Part shown: in pieces, positions 30,262-61,435 of the stretch
How positions within the stretch are numbered: the first letter of the stretch is position 1
Layout: every line of letters starts with the position of its first letter
Source: a virus
Taxonomy: Duplodnaviria; Caudoviricetes
Strand: one strand, 5' to 3'
IMG/VR virus record: IMGVR_UViG_3300025150_000002
Coordinates: 96,001-160,000 of that record
DNA: 64,000 nt
Position numbers and translations under genes: made by a program
Notes under the pieces: generated by a model
What the model was told of the DNA's origin: nothing
Databases searched by the model: none
Seen by the model: the letters and a program-made list of their open reading frames with translations, nothing else

Positions 30262-30378
30262 GTGACTGTGAGACACGGAGACCGACGGAAGACTCTTACT
30301 GCTCCAGAGTACGCAGCCTGGTCGGCCATGCGATCACGCTGTAGTGGCGTTGGTATTGGCGCATGGGAAGACGCATGA
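30262..30378 (+). pseudogene. truncated remnant of a phage HNH-associated endonuclease
   Basis: RHG...TAPEYAAWSAMRSRC matches the common HG..T.EY..W..M..RC phage nuclease motif, then stops after 38 aa. Confidence 0.55.
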
Positions 30379-30446
30379 TTCCCCCAGCAGCACACCTCAC
30401 CGGGGGCACCACCGGTAAGTTCATCGTCGTCGAAGGCAACATCGGG
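30375..30446 (+). pseudogene. relic 5' end of deoxynucleoside kinase, fused in frame to the HNH ORF
   Basis: MIPPAAHLTGGTTGKFIVVEGNIG versus downstream dNK MPIDIPAACSHLSDAQRGAFIVVEGNVG. Confidence 0.85.
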
Positions 30447-30500
30447 CCTGTTGACGACGGTATGGCGTCAATGTTACCTTCTCGTCTTCGGAGGTGGCAG

Positions 30501-31004
30501 ATGTCGCAAAGGCAGCGAAAGCCTTGGACCGAGGACCGTAAGCGCCAAGCGGTCGACCTCTACGAGACTGGCGTCTCAATGCATGCCGTGGCCAGAGCCA
30601 TGGTCACGTCGGTGCGCCATGTTCATCGTGTGCTGAACGAGCGCGGTGTGGTCAGGTCGAAGTCAGACCTTTACCGAGGAGACGGAAACCCGGCCTGGAA
30701 AGACGGTAGGCGCGTCGTTGGCGGCTATGTCTACCTCTACAGACCCGAGAGTCCGATGGCGACAGAGGCCGGCTACGTGGCTGAGCATCGGCTAGTCGTA
30801 TCTGAGTCTGTTGGTCGTCCTCTCAAGCGTGGTGAGGTCGTGCATCACAAGAATGGCGACAAGGCAGATAACCGACTGGAGAACTTGGAACTCTTTGCGT
30901 CGAACGCCGAGCATCTGCGTCACGAGCTAACGGGCCGGTGCCCGGAATGGACCGAAGACGGGAAGCGGCGCCTCCGAGAGGCGCGCAACAGAGGTCGGGG
31001 GTAG
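30501..31004 (+). CDS. HNH homing endonuclease with HTH
   Basis: GYVAEHRLVV...VVHHKNGDKADNRLENLEL; GGAGG before ATG 30501. Confidence 0.9.
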   Translation: MSQRQRKPWTEDRKRQAVDLYETGVSMHAVARAMVTSVRHVHRVLNERGVVRSKSDLYRGDGNPAWKDGRRVVGGYVYLYRPESPMATEAGYVAEHRLVVSESVGRPLKRGEVVHHKNGDKADNRLENLELFASNAEHLRHELTGRCPEWTEDGKRRLREARNRGRG

Positions 31005-31009
31005 CAGCG

Positions 31010-31711
31010 ATGCCGATTGACATACCCGCTGCTTGCTCACATCTGAGCGACGCGCAGCGAGGCGCTTTCATAGTCGTAGAAGGGAATGTGGGGGTTGGCA
31101 AAAGCTCGTTCAGCGAATCACTGACTCGGCTTCGCGGCGAAGGTGCGCAGCTGTTCCCCGAGCCAGTTGATCGGCCCGCCTTCCGTGTGCTCCTCGACCG
31201 CTACTACAAAGAACCCGCACGCTGGGGATTCACGTTCCAGATGTACGCGCTCAAGGAGCGGTTCAAGCAGCACACCCTCGCAGCGGAACTTGTAGCCCAC
31301 GGGATCGACGTAGTCCAGGACAGGAGTATCTACGCTGACGGCTGCTTCGGTCGCCTCGTCCACCTCGACAAGAATATGACCGTAGAGGAGTGGGACATCT
31401 ACGCTGAGACCTTCGGCGCGCTCAAGCGCTTTCTGCGCTACCCCGATCTACTTGTCTACCTACGGGCCGATCCGGAGATTTGCCATGATCGAACCAAACG
31501 GCGAGGACGCAAGGAGGAGTCGGGTGTCCCTCTCGATTACCTGAGACGCCTGCACGACGAACACGAAGCCCTGGTGGATGCCATGAGTCGCTTCACTCGT
31601 GTAGTCACCTTCGACTGGAACGAGTTCCAGGAGGCTGATCTGGTCAATGGGAAAATCGACGAGGCGCTCAACGAAGAAGTGCGGTTCATGCGTGATTTCA
31701 CGCGACTGTAA
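31010..31711 (+). CDS. deoxynucleoside kinase (dNK family)
   Basis: VEGNVGVGKS, QDRSIYAD, YLRADPEIC..R..RGR..E. Confidence 0.93.
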   Translation: MPIDIPAACSHLSDAQRGAFIVVEGNVGVGKSSFSESLTRLRGEGAQLFPEPVDRPAFRVLLDRYYKEPARWGFTFQMYALKERFKQHTLAAELVAHGIDVVQDRSIYADGCFGRLVHLDKNMTVEEWDIYAETFGALKRFLRYPDLLVYLRADPEICHDRTKRRGRKEESGVPLDYLRRLHDEHEALVDAMSRFTRVVTFDWNEFQEADLVNGKIDEALNEEVRFMRDFTRL

Positions 31712-56307: not shown

Positions 56308-56574
56308 CTACCTCCATTTTACCCCGAACCGACGAGGGCGTCGTGTCGTACGAGGGTCGATCAACTCATCCAGGACTGTTCTCTCTTCGAGGATCAGACC
56401 AGCGGAAAAGCCGAGAGCTTGAGCGACCAAGGCGACATCGCGCAACCGCACGTCTTGATGTCCGCGTAAGACGTCCCTGACCGTTCGACAGCTAATACCA
56501 AGGATCCGAGCGAGTTCCCGGGGCTTCAGGCCTCGATCTTCGAGCTCGGCGCGGAGCAGGGCGGGTCCAGGCAT
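56308..56574 (-). CDS. XRE/Cro-like HTH regulator
   Basis: GLKPRELARILGISCRTVRDVLRG...VAQALG. Confidence 0.8.
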   Translation of the reverse strand: MPGPALLRAELEDRGLKPRELARILGISCRTVRDVLRGHQDVRLRDVALVAQALGFSAGLILEERTVLDELIDPRTTRRPRRFGVKWR

Positions 56575-56924
56575 CGGTGTCCCTCCGCAGCCATCCTATC
56601 CAACACTCCGGGCATCAGTGCGAGCTTGGCCGCCTTTATGGAGAGATAGTGTCTAACCGGCACGCCGTCGATGAAGATCCCCCATACCTTCTTGCTCTTA
56701 CGGTATCGGATCTCACCGTTGGTGACCTCAAGCGACTTGAAGGGGGTGACCACGCACACCACGTATCGCGTCCGAAAGCGTCTCTTGCTGCGTCGGCGCA
56801 GCACAAATGAGCCTACTGGGTGTGCATTCCGATCGATGTAACGATCGTTGCTGCGGAAGAAGTCTACCCAGTGAAGAGTCGGGTGCTGCTTGATGTCCTC
56901 GTGCCAGTCCGTGAGGTTGTTCAT
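56571..56924 (-). CDS. hypothetical protein
   Basis: Probable start MNNLTD; stop overlaps next ATG. Confidence 0.55.
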
Positions 56925-56981
56925 CGGCTCGTCCTGTCCCAAGTCAACGCCCGGTATAATCTGATCAGCACCGGAGTTGCC

Positions 56982-57170
56982 ATGTCTTCTACCCTAGATC
57001 AGCGTATCCGAAGCGTCGAAGCTATCCTGGGCTTCGAACTTCGCAGCTACCAAGACCAGGCCCTTCGGGCTTTAGGTGCCGGGAAGAACGTCATCCTTCA
57101 CGTTCCAACTGGTGGCGGGAAGGAAGGCTACTTTGTGCTAGACTCTCTTTCAGAGGAGGTCGGTGTATGA
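56982..57170 (+). pseudogene. relic intein-free 5' end of recQ-like helicase
   Basis: MSSTLDQRIRSVEAILGFELRSYQDQALRALGAGKNVILHVPTGGGK then unrelated tail and stop overlapping the ATG of the full gene. Confidence 0.9.
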
Positions 57171-60100
57171 GCCCGATAGAGGGTCGCATTGAGTCGGTGG
57201 AAAGGCTTCTGGGATTCCAGGTCAGGTCATACCAAAGGCAAGCCCTCACAGCCCTGGGTCAGGGCAAGAGTGTGATTCTTCACGCTCCTACAGGCTGCCA
57301 CGCGCCTGGTCAGCTGATTCTGATGCACGATGGCTCGACCAAGAAGGTCGAGGACATCAAGAAGGGCGACCTTCTTATGGGGCCCGATAGCAAGCCCCGT
57401 CGCGTTACTAGGCTGATTCGCGGTCGCGGTCGAATGGTCAAGGTCCACCCGAAGAAGGGCGAGCCGTTTGTGGTCAACGAGGATCACATCTTGACGCTCG
57501 TCCGGACCGGCGTGGTCAGGACTCCGTCTGATGGTTCCAGGAAGCGTCGAGACTTGGGAGGTGAGCTCATCGACGTCAAGGTCAAGGACTGGGAGACCTG
57601 GTCATTGACCCAAAAGCACATCCACAAGCTCAAGCGTACAGGCGTCACTTTCCGTAGTCGAGCGCCACTCCCATTGGACCCATATACGCTCGGCATCATC
57701 ATCGGAGATGGGTCTATCAAGGACGGTACTCCTGGGGTCACCACCGCTGATTCTGAGATCGAAGAGGTTCTTGTGGCCTGCGCTGAGCGTCGGGGCCTTT
57801 ACATCAGAGAGGAGGTTAAAGCGGGAAATGCGGCTACGACCTATCGCTTGTCTTCTGGGCACCGGAAGCAAAGGGGCCGTGCCGGCGGAACGAACTCACT
57901 GACTAACGATCTTCGCCAACTCGGTCTCTGGGGCAAGGGTAGTTCGGACAAGTTCATTCCGGGGACCTACAAGGTTGCTTCCAGAAAGAGCAGACTCGAT
58001 CTCCTCGCAGGGCTCATCGACGCGGATGGCTATCTACATCACAACAACCACGTCCTAACTACTGCTAGCGAACAACTCGCAGCAGACGTTGCTTTTGTCG
58101 CCCGGAGTCTTGGGTTCGCAGCCTATATCTACACCACCTCGAAGAGGTGCCAGACTGGCTACGAGGGCGACTACTTCAGGGTCTCTATTACTGGCGACAA
58201 CTCCATCATCCCTTGCAGGCTTGAGAGGAAGACAGCCTCTCCGAGAGGCCAGGAGAAAGACCCTACGAGGACGGGCTTCACGCTTGAGGATGTTGGAGAG
58301 GGAGAGTTCTACGGGTTCTCCCTTACCGGTGATGGTCGATTCCTGCTCGGTGATTTCACCATCACCCACAACAGTGGTAAAACCGTGGCCTTCCAAGGTG
58401 CGCCATACGTGTCTCCGCACCCGGGGATAACGGTAATCCTCTACCCTCTTCGCGCCCTGGTGAAAGACCAGTCGCGACGGTTCAGCGAGCTTGGGCTCCC
58501 CAGCGTGACGCTCTACGGTGAGACTCCGACCACCGAGCGGGCCGCAATCTACGACAAGATCCTCTCAGGCTCTACCAAGATTCTGCTCACGACGCCTGAG
58601 TCCTTCGACATGAACAGGAAGTTGCAGGACGTCCTCAGGCAGCGCGGCGTGTCTGTTTTGACCGTCGATGAGGCTCATGCCTATGAGGAGTGGGCTGATG
58701 GATTTCGGCCCACCTACCGTCGGGCCGGAGCCGTCGCGAGGAGTGTCGGCGTCAAGCAGTTCCTGCTGTGCTCCGCCACTCTTACCGGTAAGGGCTTCCG
58801 AACCGCCTGCGACACCATCGGAGTGTCCAACTGGACCATCGTTCAGATCCCTCCACTGCGCTCGAACTTGATCTACAGGGACCTGAGCCAGCCTGAGAGC
58901 GAGATCCTCTGTCGGGCCGTAAGGGGCGATGGGCTGGAGGCCCCCGGGATCGTATTCTTCACGACCGTCAAGCGTCTGGAGGAGACGGCGTCCTTCGTTG
59001 AGACAAAGACTCGCCGGAAGGTGCTTCGTTATCACGGCGGCATGGCCGGCAAGGCGCGTCGAGAGGCACAAGAAGAGTTCATGACCACCGATACCTGGAT
59101 CTTTGCGACCAAGGCATTCGGTATGGGAATCGACAAGGACAACATCCGGAACATCATCCACTGTCAGTTGCCGAGCTCGGTTCTGAGCTACGCGCAGGAG
59201 TGCGTTCACGGCGACACGCCGGTGATGACGTTGAACGGAAACCGCCCAGCGCGAGACATCAAGGCGGGCGACCAACTGGCCGGCTACGACCCGGTTACTG
59301 GTGAGGTGGTTCCGGCAGTCGTTAAGGAACTCTACCAGGGCAAGACGGGTGACTGGCTCGCCGTTCGGACCTCGGCTGGTGATGAGATTGTGGTGACGAA
59401 GAATCATCCGTTCATAGTGAACGGTGGTGAGGTCCGTGCGGACCAACTCAAGGTCGGTGAACGCTTGGCGACGCTCAGCAGTTCCGCTCAGGTTGACCGT
59501 CCAATGCTTACGGCCGACTGTCTGATTGCCGATCAGACGTTCGCTCAGGTCGAACCTGGTCTTATCGATGCTCTTCGAGACAAGCTGTCTCCGACCGAGC
59601 TCGGTCAGATGTTCGGACTCTCTCGCCACCACGATTACTCCAGCTATCGTCGTGGTAAGGCGATCAAGCTCTCTGGACTGCAGGCCGCCGGCGACGCTGC
59701 TGGTATGCCTCGGCAGCAGATCTATAGTCGCGTTCTTGCGCTGAAGTCCCGGAGTGGGAAGCCTGTTCGACTGCCTCTCACGCTCGATGACGCCGAACTG
59801 GGGTGGTTCGCCGGTATCGTGGCGACTGACGGCTACATCTACCGGTCGGACAAGTCAGGGTTCGGTAGTTGGAAGATCAAGCTCACGAATACGAATCACG
59901 CGATCGTTGACAAGTTCGCCGGAATCGTGAAGCGGTTTGGACTTCACTGCCACTCTTACATCAGGACTCATCGATCTGACGCGTTGTCGAAGCGCCCGGC
60001 TCACTGCGCCGAAGTTTCGAGCCCTGTGCTCTGCGACCTACTCAACCATCTCGGTATCCACGATGGTCGCAAGAGCACGACCGTGTCTTGTTCTGAAACC

Positions 60101-61435
60101 GCGCTGAGTGCTGGAAAGCTGTTCAAGGCCGGCTTTGCGGCGGGTGTCATCGATGGCGACGGGAACCTGAGTCCTCCGAGGAGCAGCAAGCCACAGGGTA
60201 AGGTGCGGTTTCACACCGCGTCCTGGCGCTTTGCATCGTGCTTCGCCAAGCTCCTCCATAGTCTTGGTATCCACGTTCGGTTGTCGACCGAGGACTACTT
60301 AGACAACGCGCACATCATGAAGTGCTCAGTCGATTCCGGCTACAATGGCGAGATCGGGCGTTTTGAGTCGCTGCGGCGGTTCGCGGACTCCGTTGCCCCG
60401 CATCTGGTCAAGCGGATGTTTCCGGTCAAGCTGATGAGCACGGATGCACGCGAGAGCATTGGACCGATCATCGTTTCCAGGGTCATCGAGATCCGCGAGC
60501 TCAGCACGGATCTGCCGGAGTCGACGTTCAACTGGCGTGTGGAGCCGCACCATCTTCTCTGGACCGCGAACACGCTGACTCACAACTGCGGAAGAGCTGG
60601 TCGTGACGGTTACGAGTCCAACTGCTTCTTGACACAGGAGGAGCACGGCCAGTCGGCCCACTTCCTCATTGATATGAGCGTGCCGTCTATCGGGCATGTT
60701 AGGAAGGTGTGGAACGTTCTGCAGGTCATCGCGCTCGACTGGCCCGGTTGGTTCGAGGTTGATTGGCCGGATGTGGCGGCCCGAACCGGTCTGAGCCTTC
60801 CGGCTGTTCAGGCCTGCGTCAGCTGGCTTTTCACCGGGAAAATGATCGAGAAGAAGCAGAAGCGGTTGGCGTGGAAGTTCACCATTCATGACGAGTCCGA
60901 CGCCAAGGCGATCAAGTACAAGCGGAAGACCCCAGAGCTCCTCGATGCGCTTCGTGGAGAGGCGATGGTCGATCAGGGGCCCGCTGTGTTCGAGCTCAAG
61001 CCAGACGTCTTGTCCGAGGTAGTTGGACAGCACTTCTCCAACTGGCAGGCCAAGCTTAGGAAGATGAACGAACTTGACATCATCCGGATCGAGGAGCCCC
61101 CGAAGGGGAGATCCAGTTACCGGTTCCTGCACGGCTCGTTCCACTTCGCCCAGGGGCAGAAGCAGTTGGAGAAGGCCCGGTCCAGTGCCTTCGAGCGGCT
61201 GGCAGCCATGCGAGACCTTCAGTCGTGTGCGGCCCACAAGCGTCGAGACTTGATCGAGGACGCGATCTCTTTGAAGCTCCCTCCCATGGAGGGCCTGGAG
61301 ATCCTAGACACCGATCACACCGAGCCGGACCACACCGCCGAGCAGAAGGTCACCAAGCGACCTGTCATCAAGGCGGCGAAGCTAGCAGATGATGATCCGT
61401 TTGCCGAGGACGACGAGTTCATCGTCCCCTTCTAG
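57167..61435 (+). CDS. recQ: RecQ-like helicase precursor with two inteins
   Basis: HAPTG|SGKT, LYPLRAL, TTPE, VDEAH, SATL, ATKAFGMGIDK, YAQE|CGRAGRDG. Confidence 0.93.
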   Translation: MSPIEGRIESVERLLGFQVRSYQRQALTALGQGKSVILHAPTGCHAPGQLILMHDGSTKKVEDIKKGDLLMGPDSKPRRVTRLIRGRGRMVKVHPKKGEPFVVNEDHILTLVRTGVVRTPSDGSRKRRDLGGELIDVKVKDWETWSLTQKHIHKLKRTGVTFRSRAPLPLDPYTLGIIIGDGSIKDGTPGVTTADSEIEEVLVACAERRGLYIREEVKAGNAATTYRLSSGHRKQRGRAGGTNSLTNDLRQLGLWGKGSSDKFIPGTYKVASRKSRLDLLAGLIDADGYLHHNNHVLTTASEQLAADVAFVARSLGFAAYIYTTSKRCQTGYEGDYFRVSITGDNSIIPCRLERKTASPRGQEKDPTRTGFTLEDVGEGEFYGFSLTGDGRFLLGDFTITHNSGKTVAFQGAPYVSPHPGITVILYPLRALVKDQSRRFSELGLPSVTLYGETPTTERAAIYDKILSGSTKILLTTPESFDMNRKLQDVLRQRGVSVLTVDEAHAYEEWADGFRPTYRRAGAVARSVGVKQFLLCSATLTGKGFRTACDTIGVSNWTIVQIPPLRSNLIYRDLSQPESEILCRAVRGDGLEAPGIVFFTTVKRLEETASFVETKTRRKVLRYHGGMAGKARREAQEEFMTTDTWIFATKAFGMGIDKDNIRNIIHCQLPSSVLSYAQECVHGDTPVMTLNGNRPARDIKAGDQLAGYDPVTGEVVPAVVKELYQGKTGDWLAVRTSAGDEIVVTKNHPFIVNGGEVRADQLKVGERLATLSSSAQVDRPMLTADCLIADQTFAQVEPGLIDALRDKLSPTELGQMFGLSRHHDYSSYRRGKAIKLSGLQAAGDAAGMPRQQIYSRVLALKSRSGKPVRLPLTLDDAELGWFAGIVATDGYIYRSDKSGFGSWKIKLTNTNHAIVDKFAGIVKRFGLHCHSYIRTHRSDALSKRPAHCAEVSSPVLCDLLNHLGIHDGRKSTTVSCSETALSAGKLFKAGFAAGVIDGDGNLSPPRSSKPQGKVRFHTASWRFASCFAKLLHSLGIHVRLSTEDYLDNAHIMKCSVDSGYNGEIGRFESLRRFADSVAPHLVKRMFPVKLMSTDARESIGPIIVSRVIEIRELSTDLPESTFNWRVEPHHLLWTANTLTHNCGRAGRDGYESNCFLTQEEHGQSAHFLIDMSVPSIGHVRKVWNVLQVIALDWPGWFEVDWPDVAARTGLSLPAVQACVSWLFTGKMIEKKQKRLAWKFTIHDESDAKAIKYKRKTPELLDALRGEAMVDQGPAVFELKPDVLSEVVGQHFSNWQAKLRKMNELDIIRIEEPPKGRSSYRFLHGSFHFAQGQKQLEKARSSAFERLAAMRDLQSCAAHKRRDLIEDAISLKLPPMEGLEILDTDHTEPDHTAEQKVTKRPVIKAAKLADDDPFAEDDEFIVPF
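57296..58372 (+). mobile_element. RecQ intein 1 with LAGLIDADG (359 aa)
   Basis: CHAPGQ...NEDHIL...LGIIIGDG / LAGLIDADG...TITHN/S in the P-loop. Confidence 0.94.
59201..60586 (+). mobile_element. RecQ intein 2 with LAGLIDADG (462 aa)
   Basis: CVHGDT...TKNHPF...FAGIVATDG / AAGVIDGDG...TLTHN/C in motif VI. Confidence 0.94.

What the first reader, a model, noticed from the sequence alone, without database searches (positions are those of the whole stretch)
56982..58372. Intein apparently imported with its own N-extein, leaving an intein-free recQ 5' relic with Gly at the +1 site
Seen: 47 aa of recQ N-terminus (...HVPTG GGK) are duplicated directly upstream of the full gene (...HAPTG [intein] SGKT). 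The relic has Gly where splicing needs Cys/Ser/Thr. Known: intein splicing requires a +1 nucleophile. Inference: the intein colonised a non-permissive allele by bringing the donor 5' gene segment and RBS, the same terminal-replacement logic as the three free-standing HEGs. Together these four loci suggest a general mode of homing in this phage group.
Basis: partly seen in the sequence, partly recalled or inferred. Interest (0 to 1): 0.72.

Follow-up and report, generated by a model that had tools for sequence, protein, structure and literature searches.

The report
Intein cassette that displaces the gene start
A self-splicing intein in a groundwater phage helicase gene travels with its own gene start and ribosome-binding site, leaving the resident gene start as a short relic; the same layout recurs in at least four other phage lineages.

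Summary
A 62-codon ORF (56982-57170) repeats the first 47 codons of the RecQ-like helicase gene that starts at 57167. It ends three codons past the site where intein 1 (57296-58372) sits in the full gene, and it has Gly where the full gene has the +1 Ser. The two copies are only 56% identical in DNA. Contigs from four sequencing runs cover the junction, so this is neither an assembly artefact nor a recent duplication.

The layout is not private to this phage. Four other lineages (L003, L005, L035, L034) have the same order of parts: relic, about 44-60 nt of foreign leader with a ribosome-binding site, a new N-extein, then the intein. Four of the five share an identical junction after PTGGGK.

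Each relic groups with the intein-free gene starts of its own host clade. The carriers sit in four separate clades of the helicase tree, and the relic-associated inteins form one clade.

My best reading: a composite element (leader + N-extein + intein) arose by one-sided illegitimate repair. It then spread with the relic acting as its left homology arm. This mirrors yeast WHO elements and mitochondrial endonuclease elements.

I rate this a new variant of a known kind, of moderate-to-high interest. The scan had noted this same stretch before, but found nothing like it on other DNA.

The parts
56952..56960 (+). Conserved CGGTATAAT box upstream of the relic start; probably the resident promoter -10 element, which now drives relic plus helicase.
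   Evidence: GGTATAA(T/C) lies 18-25 nt upstream of the start codon in the window, L003, L005, L034, L035 and in intein-free relatives L007, L031, L032, L030, L002, L033. The simple sigma-70 scan found no full promoter, and the motif occurs only once in the window.
56982..57122 (+). Relic of the resident 5' end: 47 codons of the helicase (Q-motif region up to the P-loop, PTGGGK), with Gly at the position that is +1 Ser in the full gene.
   Evidence: Nearest relatives are intein-free N-termini of its own clade (P0026 82% aa; P0009/P0003 80% aa, 71-72% nt). Only one residue is unseen among 23 functional N-termini.
57123..57166 (+). Imported 5' leader, read as the 15-codon tail of the relic ORF. 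It carries a decayed -10-like TGTGCTAGACT (57134-57144) and the ribosome-binding site GAGGAGG (57153-57159).
   Evidence: Homologous leaders follow the same junction in L003 (73% nt), L005 and L035; L034 has a longer one. The leader resembles the native GGTATAAC...AGAGG upstream region of outer-clade genes L009 and L010.
57167..57295 (+). New N-extein: 43 codons ending HAPTG.
   Evidence: 77% aa identity to the N-extein of P0004, and pairs with it (92/81 support). It falls outside the clade of relics plus intein-free N-termini.
57296..58372 (+). Intein 1: 359 aa, class-1 type (Cys1 ... His-Asn, followed by +1 Ser), with a VDE/PI-SceI-like LAGLIDADG endonuclease, inserted in the P-loop.
   Evidence: Pfam PF05203, PF05204 and PF14528; boundaries. 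Both LAGLIDADG motifs are visible in the translation (the pattern caught only the second for the window). 89% aa and 85% nt identity to the L003 intein, with dS 0.68 against 1.9-2.4 in the flanks.
58373..59200 (+). Middle extein (helicase motifs I to VI), of resident (host-clade) type from the first codons after Ser.
   Evidence: 83% aa identity to intein-free P0002 and 80% to carrier P0004; placement in the trees.
59201..60586 (+). Intein 2: 462 aa, LAGLIDADG type, inserted in motif VI (YAQE | C...HN | CGRAGR).
   Evidence: L003 and L005 share 73-86% nt across it against 55-70% in the flanks.
60587..61435 (+). C-extein and stop codon.

Best explanation
The relic is the resident, promoter-proximal start of a single-copy RecQ-like SF2 helicase gene. 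It was displaced by a composite homing element made of a donor 5' leader (decayed -10 box plus ribosome-binding site), a donor N-extein of 43 codons, a VDE-like LAGLIDADG intein, and the +1 Ser codon.

Inferred origin. The intein endonuclease cut a P-loop of type HVPTGGGKT. The right end was repaired by homology with the well-conserved helicase core. The left end had only about 130 nt of poorly matching N-extein to pair with (exact runs of 7-11 nt), so synthesis ran past the donor's start codon and the end was joined illegitimately about 9 nt beyond the insertion site.

Inferred spread. Once formed, the relic gives the element a left homology arm that matches this clade. The whole unit can then be copied into naive alleles, and each recipient's own start becomes a fresh relic. 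The intein also still homes on its own between cassette alleles.

What is shown: the anatomy, its recurrence in five lineages, and the conflicting phylogenies. What is inferred: the endonuclease cut, the illegitimate join, and homing as a unit.
For: (1) Five lineages carry relic + leader + new N-extein + intein: the window, L003/L004, L005/L021, L035 and L034. Four share the junction exactly after the GGGK codon and have homologous leaders; L034 is joined within 1-2 nt of that point and has a longer leader.
(2) Among sampled genes with intein 1, all 5 of the main clade have a relic and none of the 3 outer-clade genes (HSPTG|SGK context) do.
(3) On the middle-extein tree the carriers fall in four separate, supported clades among intein-free relatives. 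The AU test rejects carrier monophyly (p 6.5e-4), and at least 4 changes are needed.
(4) Each relic sits with the functional N-termini of its own host clade, and the AU test rejects a clade of all relics (p 8.5e-5). A single clade of the new N-exteins is not rejected (p 0.19).
(5) The relic-associated inteins form one clade (support 93/92) apart from the native-context inteins.
(6) L034 and L035 have sister hosts: the upstream gene is 51% identical between them against 31-41% to others, and relic plus intergenic region is 71% nt identical. Yet their cassettes are deeply different (N-extein 55% nt), and the AU test rejects their inteins as sisters (p 3e-4).
(7) Relics are unevenly decayed. They show 0-1 unusual residues in the window, L005 and L035, 3 in L034 and 6 in L003. 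Relic L005 has dN 0.07 against P0027, equal to the helicase core, while dS is saturated. Most relics therefore look recently functional.
(8) The inteins are demonstrably mobile. Window-L003 identity jumps to 80-91% exactly over intein 1 (dS 0.68 against 1.9-2.4), and L003-L005 identity rises over intein 2.
(9) There is a published precedent for a displaced gene end serving as a homology arm: WHO elements at yeast FBA1 (PMC7282813).
Against: The cassette/intein tree largely mirrors the deep host tree: (L035,(P0021,(window,P0004))). Cassette divergence (N-extein 62-72% nt) is as deep as host-gene divergence (69-72%). That is also what vertical descent from one old event would give.

Synonymous sites are saturated between all sampled relatives, so no event can be dated and no recent donor-recipient pair was found.

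Window-L003 similarity is raised only over the intein, not over the leader or N-extein, so the most recent transfer detected moved the intein alone.

The endonuclease's target and cut position are unknown. A junction 9 nt to the right of the insertion site is further than many LAGLIDADG cuts (my own knowledge, not tested).

With 44 columns, the AU test cannot reject the window's relic and new N-extein being sisters (p 0.235).
Confidence: 0.55

Rival explanations
1. One ancient event at the base of the main clade, then vertical descent. Intein-free relatives lost the cassette repeatedly. The relic ORF is kept by selection, for example as a translated leader that carries the promoter and delivers ribosomes to the overlapping start.
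For: The cassette/intein topology mirrors the deep host topology, and its divergence is as deep as the host gene's. All five relic ORFs are intact, and dN is far below the saturated dS. The relic stop overlaps the main start in 3 of 5 lineages (ATGA, ATGA, GTGA).
Against: It needs at least 9 precise losses that restore PTGGGKT, against 4 gains. The only repeat available for such a deletion is a 9-nt stretch matching at 5 of 9 positions (my count on the sequence). The AU test rejects relics forming their own lineage (p 8.5e-5). The sister hosts L034 and L035 carry non-sister cassettes. Relic L003 shows relaxed constraint, with 6 unusual residues including the Q-motif aromatic residue. In L035 and L034 the relic stops right after the junction and is not coupled to the main start.
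Confidence: 0.25
2. A local tandem duplication of the segment from about -44 to codon 47 arose in an ancestral genome without any foreign donor. The upstream copy became the relic, and the intein later homed into the downstream copy.
For: The layout is formally a tandem duplication: leader plus 47 codons repeated. The cassette leader resembles a helicase-gene -10/ribosome-binding-site region. The AU test does not reject the window's relic and new N-extein as sisters (p 0.235).
Against: Within-genome copies are 53-56% nt identical, while relics are 65-79% identical to the N-termini of other genomes. The new N-extein of L034 is of outer-clade type (ends LTALAAGK.VILHSPTG, as in P0030) while its relic is of main-clade type. 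All new N-exteins carry the intein-associated H(A/S)PTG, and the association with the intein is 5 of 5. Relics are polyphyletic. The duplication end point coincides with the intein site to within 9 nt.
Confidence: 0.12
3. Assembly artefact or very recent duplication in this one contig.
For: None found.
Against: The copies are 56% identical in DNA. Contigs from four runs span the junction without variants. Independent assemblies from other samples show the same architecture.
Confidence: 0.01

Closest known systems
WHO homing elements at the yeast FBA1 gene (Coughlan et al. 2020, eLife; PMC7282813)
   Same: A VDE/intein-related endonuclease element brings a replacement end of the target gene and pushes the resident end aside as a fragment. 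In the authors' model the fragment is the homology arm that lets the whole unit home. The replaced end and the rest of the gene give conflicting trees. Intein 1 here matches the VDE Pfam families PF05203 and PF05204.
   Different: WHO elements replace the 3' end, do not splice, sit outside the gene, and build arrays of fragments. Here the 5' end, leader and ribosome-binding site are replaced, the endonuclease sits inside a canonical splicing intein within the gene, and only one relic is present. WHO cleavage was shown experimentally; nothing here was.
Mitochondrial mobile endonuclease ORFs with an inserted foreign C-terminus and a displaced native C-terminus (Allomyces atp6; Glomus atp6, atp9, cox2, nad3; Beaudet et al. 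2013, PMC3630166)
   Same: A foreign gene end is imported together with a LAGLIDADG or GIY-YIG gene. The native end persists next to it and clusters with close relatives, while the inserted end does not. The identity figures are similar: 64% between duplicates against 91% to a relative.
   Different: Those are free-standing or in-frame fused endonuclease genes at the 3' ends of organelle genes, with no intein. Here the element sits at the 5' end of a phage gene, with a splicing intein.
Standard intein homing with flanking co-conversion (PI-SceI/VDE type)
   Same: A class-1 intein with a nested LAGLIDADG endonuclease sits at a conserved P-loop site. Intein-free alleles exist, and the intein sequence is more similar between genomes than its flanks are.
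   Different: Standard homing uses homology on both sides and leaves no duplicate. Here the whole N-extein and the leader came along, and the resident start survives as a relic in all five main-clade carriers.
Free-standing homing endonuclease with a 5' gene relic in the same window (HNH at the deoxynucleoside kinase P-loop, 30363-31711)
   Same: A resident N-terminus is cut off at the P-loop (..FIVVEGNIG) and is followed by a complete gene with its own start (..FIVVEGNVGVGKS).
   Different: There the endonuclease is a separate HNH gene fused to the relic, not an intein inside the new copy. I did not examine relatives of that locus.

Membership tests
Class-1 intein with nested LAGLIDADG homing endonuclease (VDE/PI-SceI-like) | N-terminal Cys/Ser, and C-terminal His-Asn followed by a Cys/Ser/Thr +1 residue | tested here: met
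   Cys44 ... His-Asn402, then Ser403. The same holds in all eight homologous inteins.
Class-1 intein with nested LAGLIDADG homing endonuclease (VDE/PI-SceI-like) | Hint splicing domain and two LAGLIDADG motifs with acidic residues | tested here: met
   Pfam Hom_end_hint E 4.7e-16, Hom_end 1.4e-11, LAGLIDADG_3 3.1e-23. The motifs ..GIIIGDG.. and LLAGLIDADG are visible in the translation; the pattern matched the second motif in the window and both motifs in the seven relatives.
Class-1 intein with nested LAGLIDADG homing endonuclease (VDE/PI-SceI-like) | In-frame insertion at a conserved site, with intein-free homologues that close up exactly | tested here: met
   About 30 homologues of roughly 600 aa read PTG(G/A/S)GK(T/S) without the insert.
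Class-1 intein with nested LAGLIDADG homing endonuclease (VDE/PI-SceI-like) | Protein splicing and site-specific DNA cleavage activity | not testable with these tools
   Needs expression and cleavage assays. Indirect support only: this is the single helicase copy in the record, and the intein has spread horizontally.
Terminal-replacement homing element (WHO / mitochondrial mobile-ORF type) | The endonuclease-bearing element carries a replacement end of the target gene, and the resident end persists beside it as a fragment | tested here: met
   Relic 56982-57122, followed by imported leader, N-extein and intein. The same holds in four other lineages.
Terminal-replacement homing element (WHO / mitochondrial mobile-ORF type) | The displaced end follows the host phylogeny and the replacement end does not | tested here: met
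   AU tests: all relics as one clade p 8.5e-5; carriers as one clade p 6.5e-4; L034+L035 inteins as sisters p 3e-4.
Terminal-replacement homing element (WHO / mitochondrial mobile-ORF type) | Works without protein splicing, with the endonuclease gene outside the target reading frame (WHO definition) | tested here: not met
   Here the endonuclease is inside a canonical in-frame intein. It works like a WHO element but is not a member of that family.
Terminal-replacement homing element (WHO / mitochondrial mobile-ORF type) | The endonuclease cleaves naive alleles, and the new allele and the fragment are resistant | not testable with these tools
The relic keeps only 9 nt to the right of the insertion site.
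RecQ family helicase | SF2 core (DEAD plus Helicase_C domains) | tested here: met
   PF00270 E 6.3e-17 and PF00271 E 9.1e-16.
RecQ family helicase | RecQ zinc-binding / RQC domains (PF16124, PF09382) | tested here: not met
   Not reported for the window protein at E <= 0.01, nor listed for any of the 60 closest homologues. More distant true RecQ hits do carry them. Best called RecQ-like.

The most novel reading that the evidence does not exclude
A bona fide splicing intein has become the core of a larger mobile unit that includes its own N-extein, ribosome-binding site and leader. The unit homes as a whole into helicase alleles that the intein could not enter by ordinary two-sided homologous repair. 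It uses the relic of the previous host's gene start as its left homology arm, and it makes a fresh relic from each new recipient. This would be an intein counterpart of WHO elements. It would also show how homing elements cross into diverged host clades when their insertion site lies close to a gene end.
Probability: 0.45. Interest if true: 0.72.

Novelty: new variant of a known kind. Interest (0 to 1): 0.62.

Why it matters
Intein homing is normally described as a clean, two-sided gene conversion that leaves no trace beyond short co-conversion tracts. Here an intein only 43 codons from a gene start is always found, in one large phage clade, with an imported gene start and a displaced resident one. 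The displaced piece follows the host while the imported piece follows the element.

This gives a concrete, testable model for how homing elements cross a homology barrier and then carry a homology arm with them. It links inteins mechanistically to WHO/HO-type and mitochondrial terminal-replacement elements.

There is also a practical point for annotation. Short ORFs that copy a gene start upstream of intein-bearing phage genes are relics of homing, not small genes. Gene-start sequences of such genes should not be used for host phylogeny.

Tried and rejected
- A megablast of the locus against the phage collection found nothing. Two scans of viral contigs returned only one intein-free relative.
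- No RNA holder is listed for the stretch, so expression of the relic could not be examined.
- The simple sigma-70 scan found no full promoter, and one terminator-like hairpin at 56897-56916 lies inside the divergent upstream gene. The CGGTATAAT box is not a recurrent motif in the window, so calling it a promoter rests only on its conservation among relatives.
- Dating by synonymous divergence failed. dS is saturated (above 1, often undefined) for nearly all pairs.
- The AU test on 44 columns could not reject the window's relic and new N-extein as sisters (p 0.235). The case against a local duplication rests on nucleotide identities and on the other lineages.
- I looked for an intein-free allele of cassette type (relic plus new-type N-extein without intein) and found none. 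P0008 (HAPTGSGKS) has a host-type N-terminus and only 107 nt upstream, so no relic.
- I considered that the L034 relic might extend further into the C-extein, which would mean a different junction. About 20 nt is too little to decide, so I left it open.
- I considered a function for the 62-aa product. The tail is not conserved, and two lineages stop right after the junction.
- Contig look-ups were exhausted before DNA of P0018, the closest non-carrier to carrier L035, could be fetched.
Full report
**Observation**

The window is part of a 203.5-kb viral record that is estimated 89% complete.

- At 56982-57170 a 62-codon ORF precedes and overlaps (ATGA) a 1422-codon gene at 57167-61435.
- The long gene is an SF2 helicase (DEAD, Helicase_C) interrupted by two LAGLIDADG inteins.
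  - Intein 1 (aa 44-402, 57296-58372) lies in the P-loop: HAPTG | C...HN | SGKT.
  - Intein 2 (aa 679-1140, 59201-60586) lies in motif VI.
- The short ORF repeats the first 44 residues up to PTG, continues with GGK, and then diverges into a 15-residue tail.
- The two copies are 67% identical in protein and 56% in DNA, and the longest exact run is 7 nt.
- The helicase is single-copy in the record.
- Contigs from four sequencing runs cover relic, junction and intein start without variants. Several of those runs may be the window's source.
- The architecture also appears in independent assemblies of other phages (below).

Assembly duplication and recent tandem duplication are excluded.

**The family**

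A search with the middle extein found about 35 close homologues at 64-83% identity.

- Most are intein-free, about 600 aa, and have P-loop HVPTG(G/A)GKT.
- A few intein-free ones have H(A/S)PTGSGK.
- Every intein-bearing gene has H(A/S)PTG | intein | SGK.
- None of the close homologues, nor the window protein, shows the RecQ zinc-binding or RQC domains that more distant true RecQ hits carry. The gene is RecQ-like rather than a demonstrated RecQ.

**The relic is not private to this phage**

- Directly upstream of the two other two-intein genes (P0004 in L003/L004; P0021 in L005/L021) lies the same kind of relic. It ends after PTGGGK, is followed by a homologous 44-nt leader with a ribosome-binding site, and has a stop that overlaps the main start.
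- A search with the relic ORF found two more, L035 and L034.
- L035 has the identical junction and a homologous leader.
- L034 is joined within 1-2 nt (PTGGG-N-stop). It has a longer leader and a more divergent N-extein of HSPTG type.
- The three one-intein genes of the outer clade (P0030, P0034, P0035) have the intein in native context with no relic.
- So 5 of 5 main-clade carriers have the relic and 0 of 3 outer-clade carriers do.
- In intein-free relatives the gene start lies at the same distance from the upstream divergent gene and from the conserved GGTATAAT box as the relic start does. The relic therefore occupies the ancestral start.
- The leader contains a decayed -10-like TGnTAnAnT and resembles the native GGTATAAC...AGAGG region upstream of outer-clade genes. 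This suggests it is a captured native 5' region.

**Phylogenies**

- On the extein trees the carriers fall into four separate, supported clades among intein-free genes. The AU test rejects carrier monophyly (p 6.5e-4), and at least four changes are needed.
- On the N-terminal tree (44 columns, weak resolution) each relic sits with its own host clade. Relic L005 groups with P0019/P0027 (97/92). Relics L034 and L035 group with P0011/16/18/22. Relic L003 groups with P0012/14/17/25. The window's relic groups with P0026/P0008/P0009.
- The AU test rejects a clade of all relics (p 8.5e-5). A clade of all new N-exteins is not rejected (p 0.19).
- The relic-associated inteins form one clade (93/92) apart from the native-context inteins, with topology (L034,(L035,(P0021,(window,P0004)))).
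- L034 and L035 have sister hosts: the upstream gene is 51% identical between them against 31-41% to others, and relic plus intergenic region is 71% nt identical. Their N-exteins are only 55% identical, and the AU test rejects their inteins as sisters (p 3e-4).

**State of the relics**

- Synonymous sites are saturated between all sampled relatives.
- Even so, relic-to-nearest-functional-N-terminus dN is 0.07-0.24, similar to functional sequence.
- Relics of the window, L005 and L035 have 0-1 residues never seen in 23 functional N-termini. L034 has 3. L003 has 6, more than any functional sequence.
- This uneven decay fits relics of different ages better than one old relic under uniform selection.

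**The inteins are mobile in their own right**

- Window-L003 identity rises to 80-91% exactly over intein 1 (dS 0.68, against 1.9 in the middle extein and 2.4 in the N-extein).
- L003-L005 identity rises over intein 2.

**Interpretation**

The imported 5' end is supported.

I propose instead that the intein entered the main clade from a lineage in which it sat in native context.

- The right end of the break could pair with the conserved helicase core.
- The left end had only about 130 nt of poorly matching sequence, with exact runs of 7-11 nt between relic-type and cassette-type N-termini.
- Repair therefore copied through the donor's start and leader and closed by an illegitimate join.
- The relic then provides a clade-matched left arm, so leader + N-extein + intein can be copied as a unit into naive alleles.
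- That would explain the fixed junction, the host-like and mostly fresh relics, the scattered distribution, and the non-sister cassettes in sister hosts.

This is the logic proposed for WHO elements at yeast FBA1, where the displaced gene fragment is the recombination arm (PMC7282813). It is also the logic of mitochondrial endonuclease ORFs that import a foreign C-terminus (PMC3630166). Here it is mirrored to the 5' end and built around a splicing intein.

**Rivals**

- An old single event with vertical descent is favoured by two points. The cassette tree largely mirrors the deep host tree, and cassette divergence is as deep as host divergence. It needs at least nine precise losses and does not explain the L034/L035 conflict or the AU result for relics.
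- A purely local tandem duplication is formally possible for the origin. It fits poorly with three observations: the within-genome identity of 53-56%, the outer-clade-type N-extein of L034, and the perfect association with the intein.
- I give the composite-element reading 0.55, old vertical descent 0.25, local duplication 0.12, and artefact about 0.01.

**Context**

The same window holds a free-standing HNH gene fused to a truncated kinase N-terminus (..FIVVEGNIG). It is followed by a complete deoxynucleoside kinase gene (..FIVVEGNVGVGKS). Earlier notes of the scan describe this and similar loci; I checked only this one.

**Verdict**

This is a new variant of a known kind, terminal-replacement homing, here built around a true intein at a gene's 5' end and recurrent across at least five phage lineages. 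I found no description of such an intein arrangement in four literature searches. That does not prove none exists.

Noticed in passing
window 30363-31711: An ORF starts with a deoxynucleoside-kinase N-terminus cut off in the P-loop (..FIVVEGNIG) and runs in frame into an HNH endonuclease (PF13392). It is followed by a complete kinase gene (PF01712) that restarts with ..FIVVEGNVGVGKS. This is the same 5' relic logic, with a free-standing endonuclease.
   Followed up: partly
window 59201-60586; L003:5035-6423; L005:5005-6393: Intein 2 (motif VI) of L003 and L005 is 73-86% nt identical, against 55-70% in the flanking exteins, while the window's intein 2 is only 57% aa identical to both. Intein 2 has therefore also moved between lineages. 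All four carriers whose contigs reach motif VI carry intein 2 as well as intein 1; L034 ends before it.
   Followed up: partly
P0008, P0019, P0031, P0033 (homologues; L033 and L020 for the first two): These intein-free alleles have the intein-associated P-loop H(A/S)PTGSGK and host-type N-termini. They may be footprints of ordinary homing followed by precise intein loss, or they may be empty cognate sites.
   Followed up: partly
window 56526-56942 (- strand): A divergent 138-aa ORF of unknown family lies between the HTH gene (56308-56574) and the helicase. It is present in the window, L003, L007, L034 and L035, but absent in L005, L030 and L032, where the HTH gene lies directly upstream. The left flank of the helicase gene is therefore variable, which limits left-side homology for homing.
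   Followed up: partly
window 56932-57055: In one run (X6), the contigs laid on the window break inside the relic: one ends at 56931 and the next begins at 57056, at depth about 5. This could be low coverage or a variant bubble at the relic.
   Followed up: no
L033:5452-5691: A small HNH_3 gene lies about 2 kb downstream of the intein-free helicase P0008 in a related contig.
   Followed up: no
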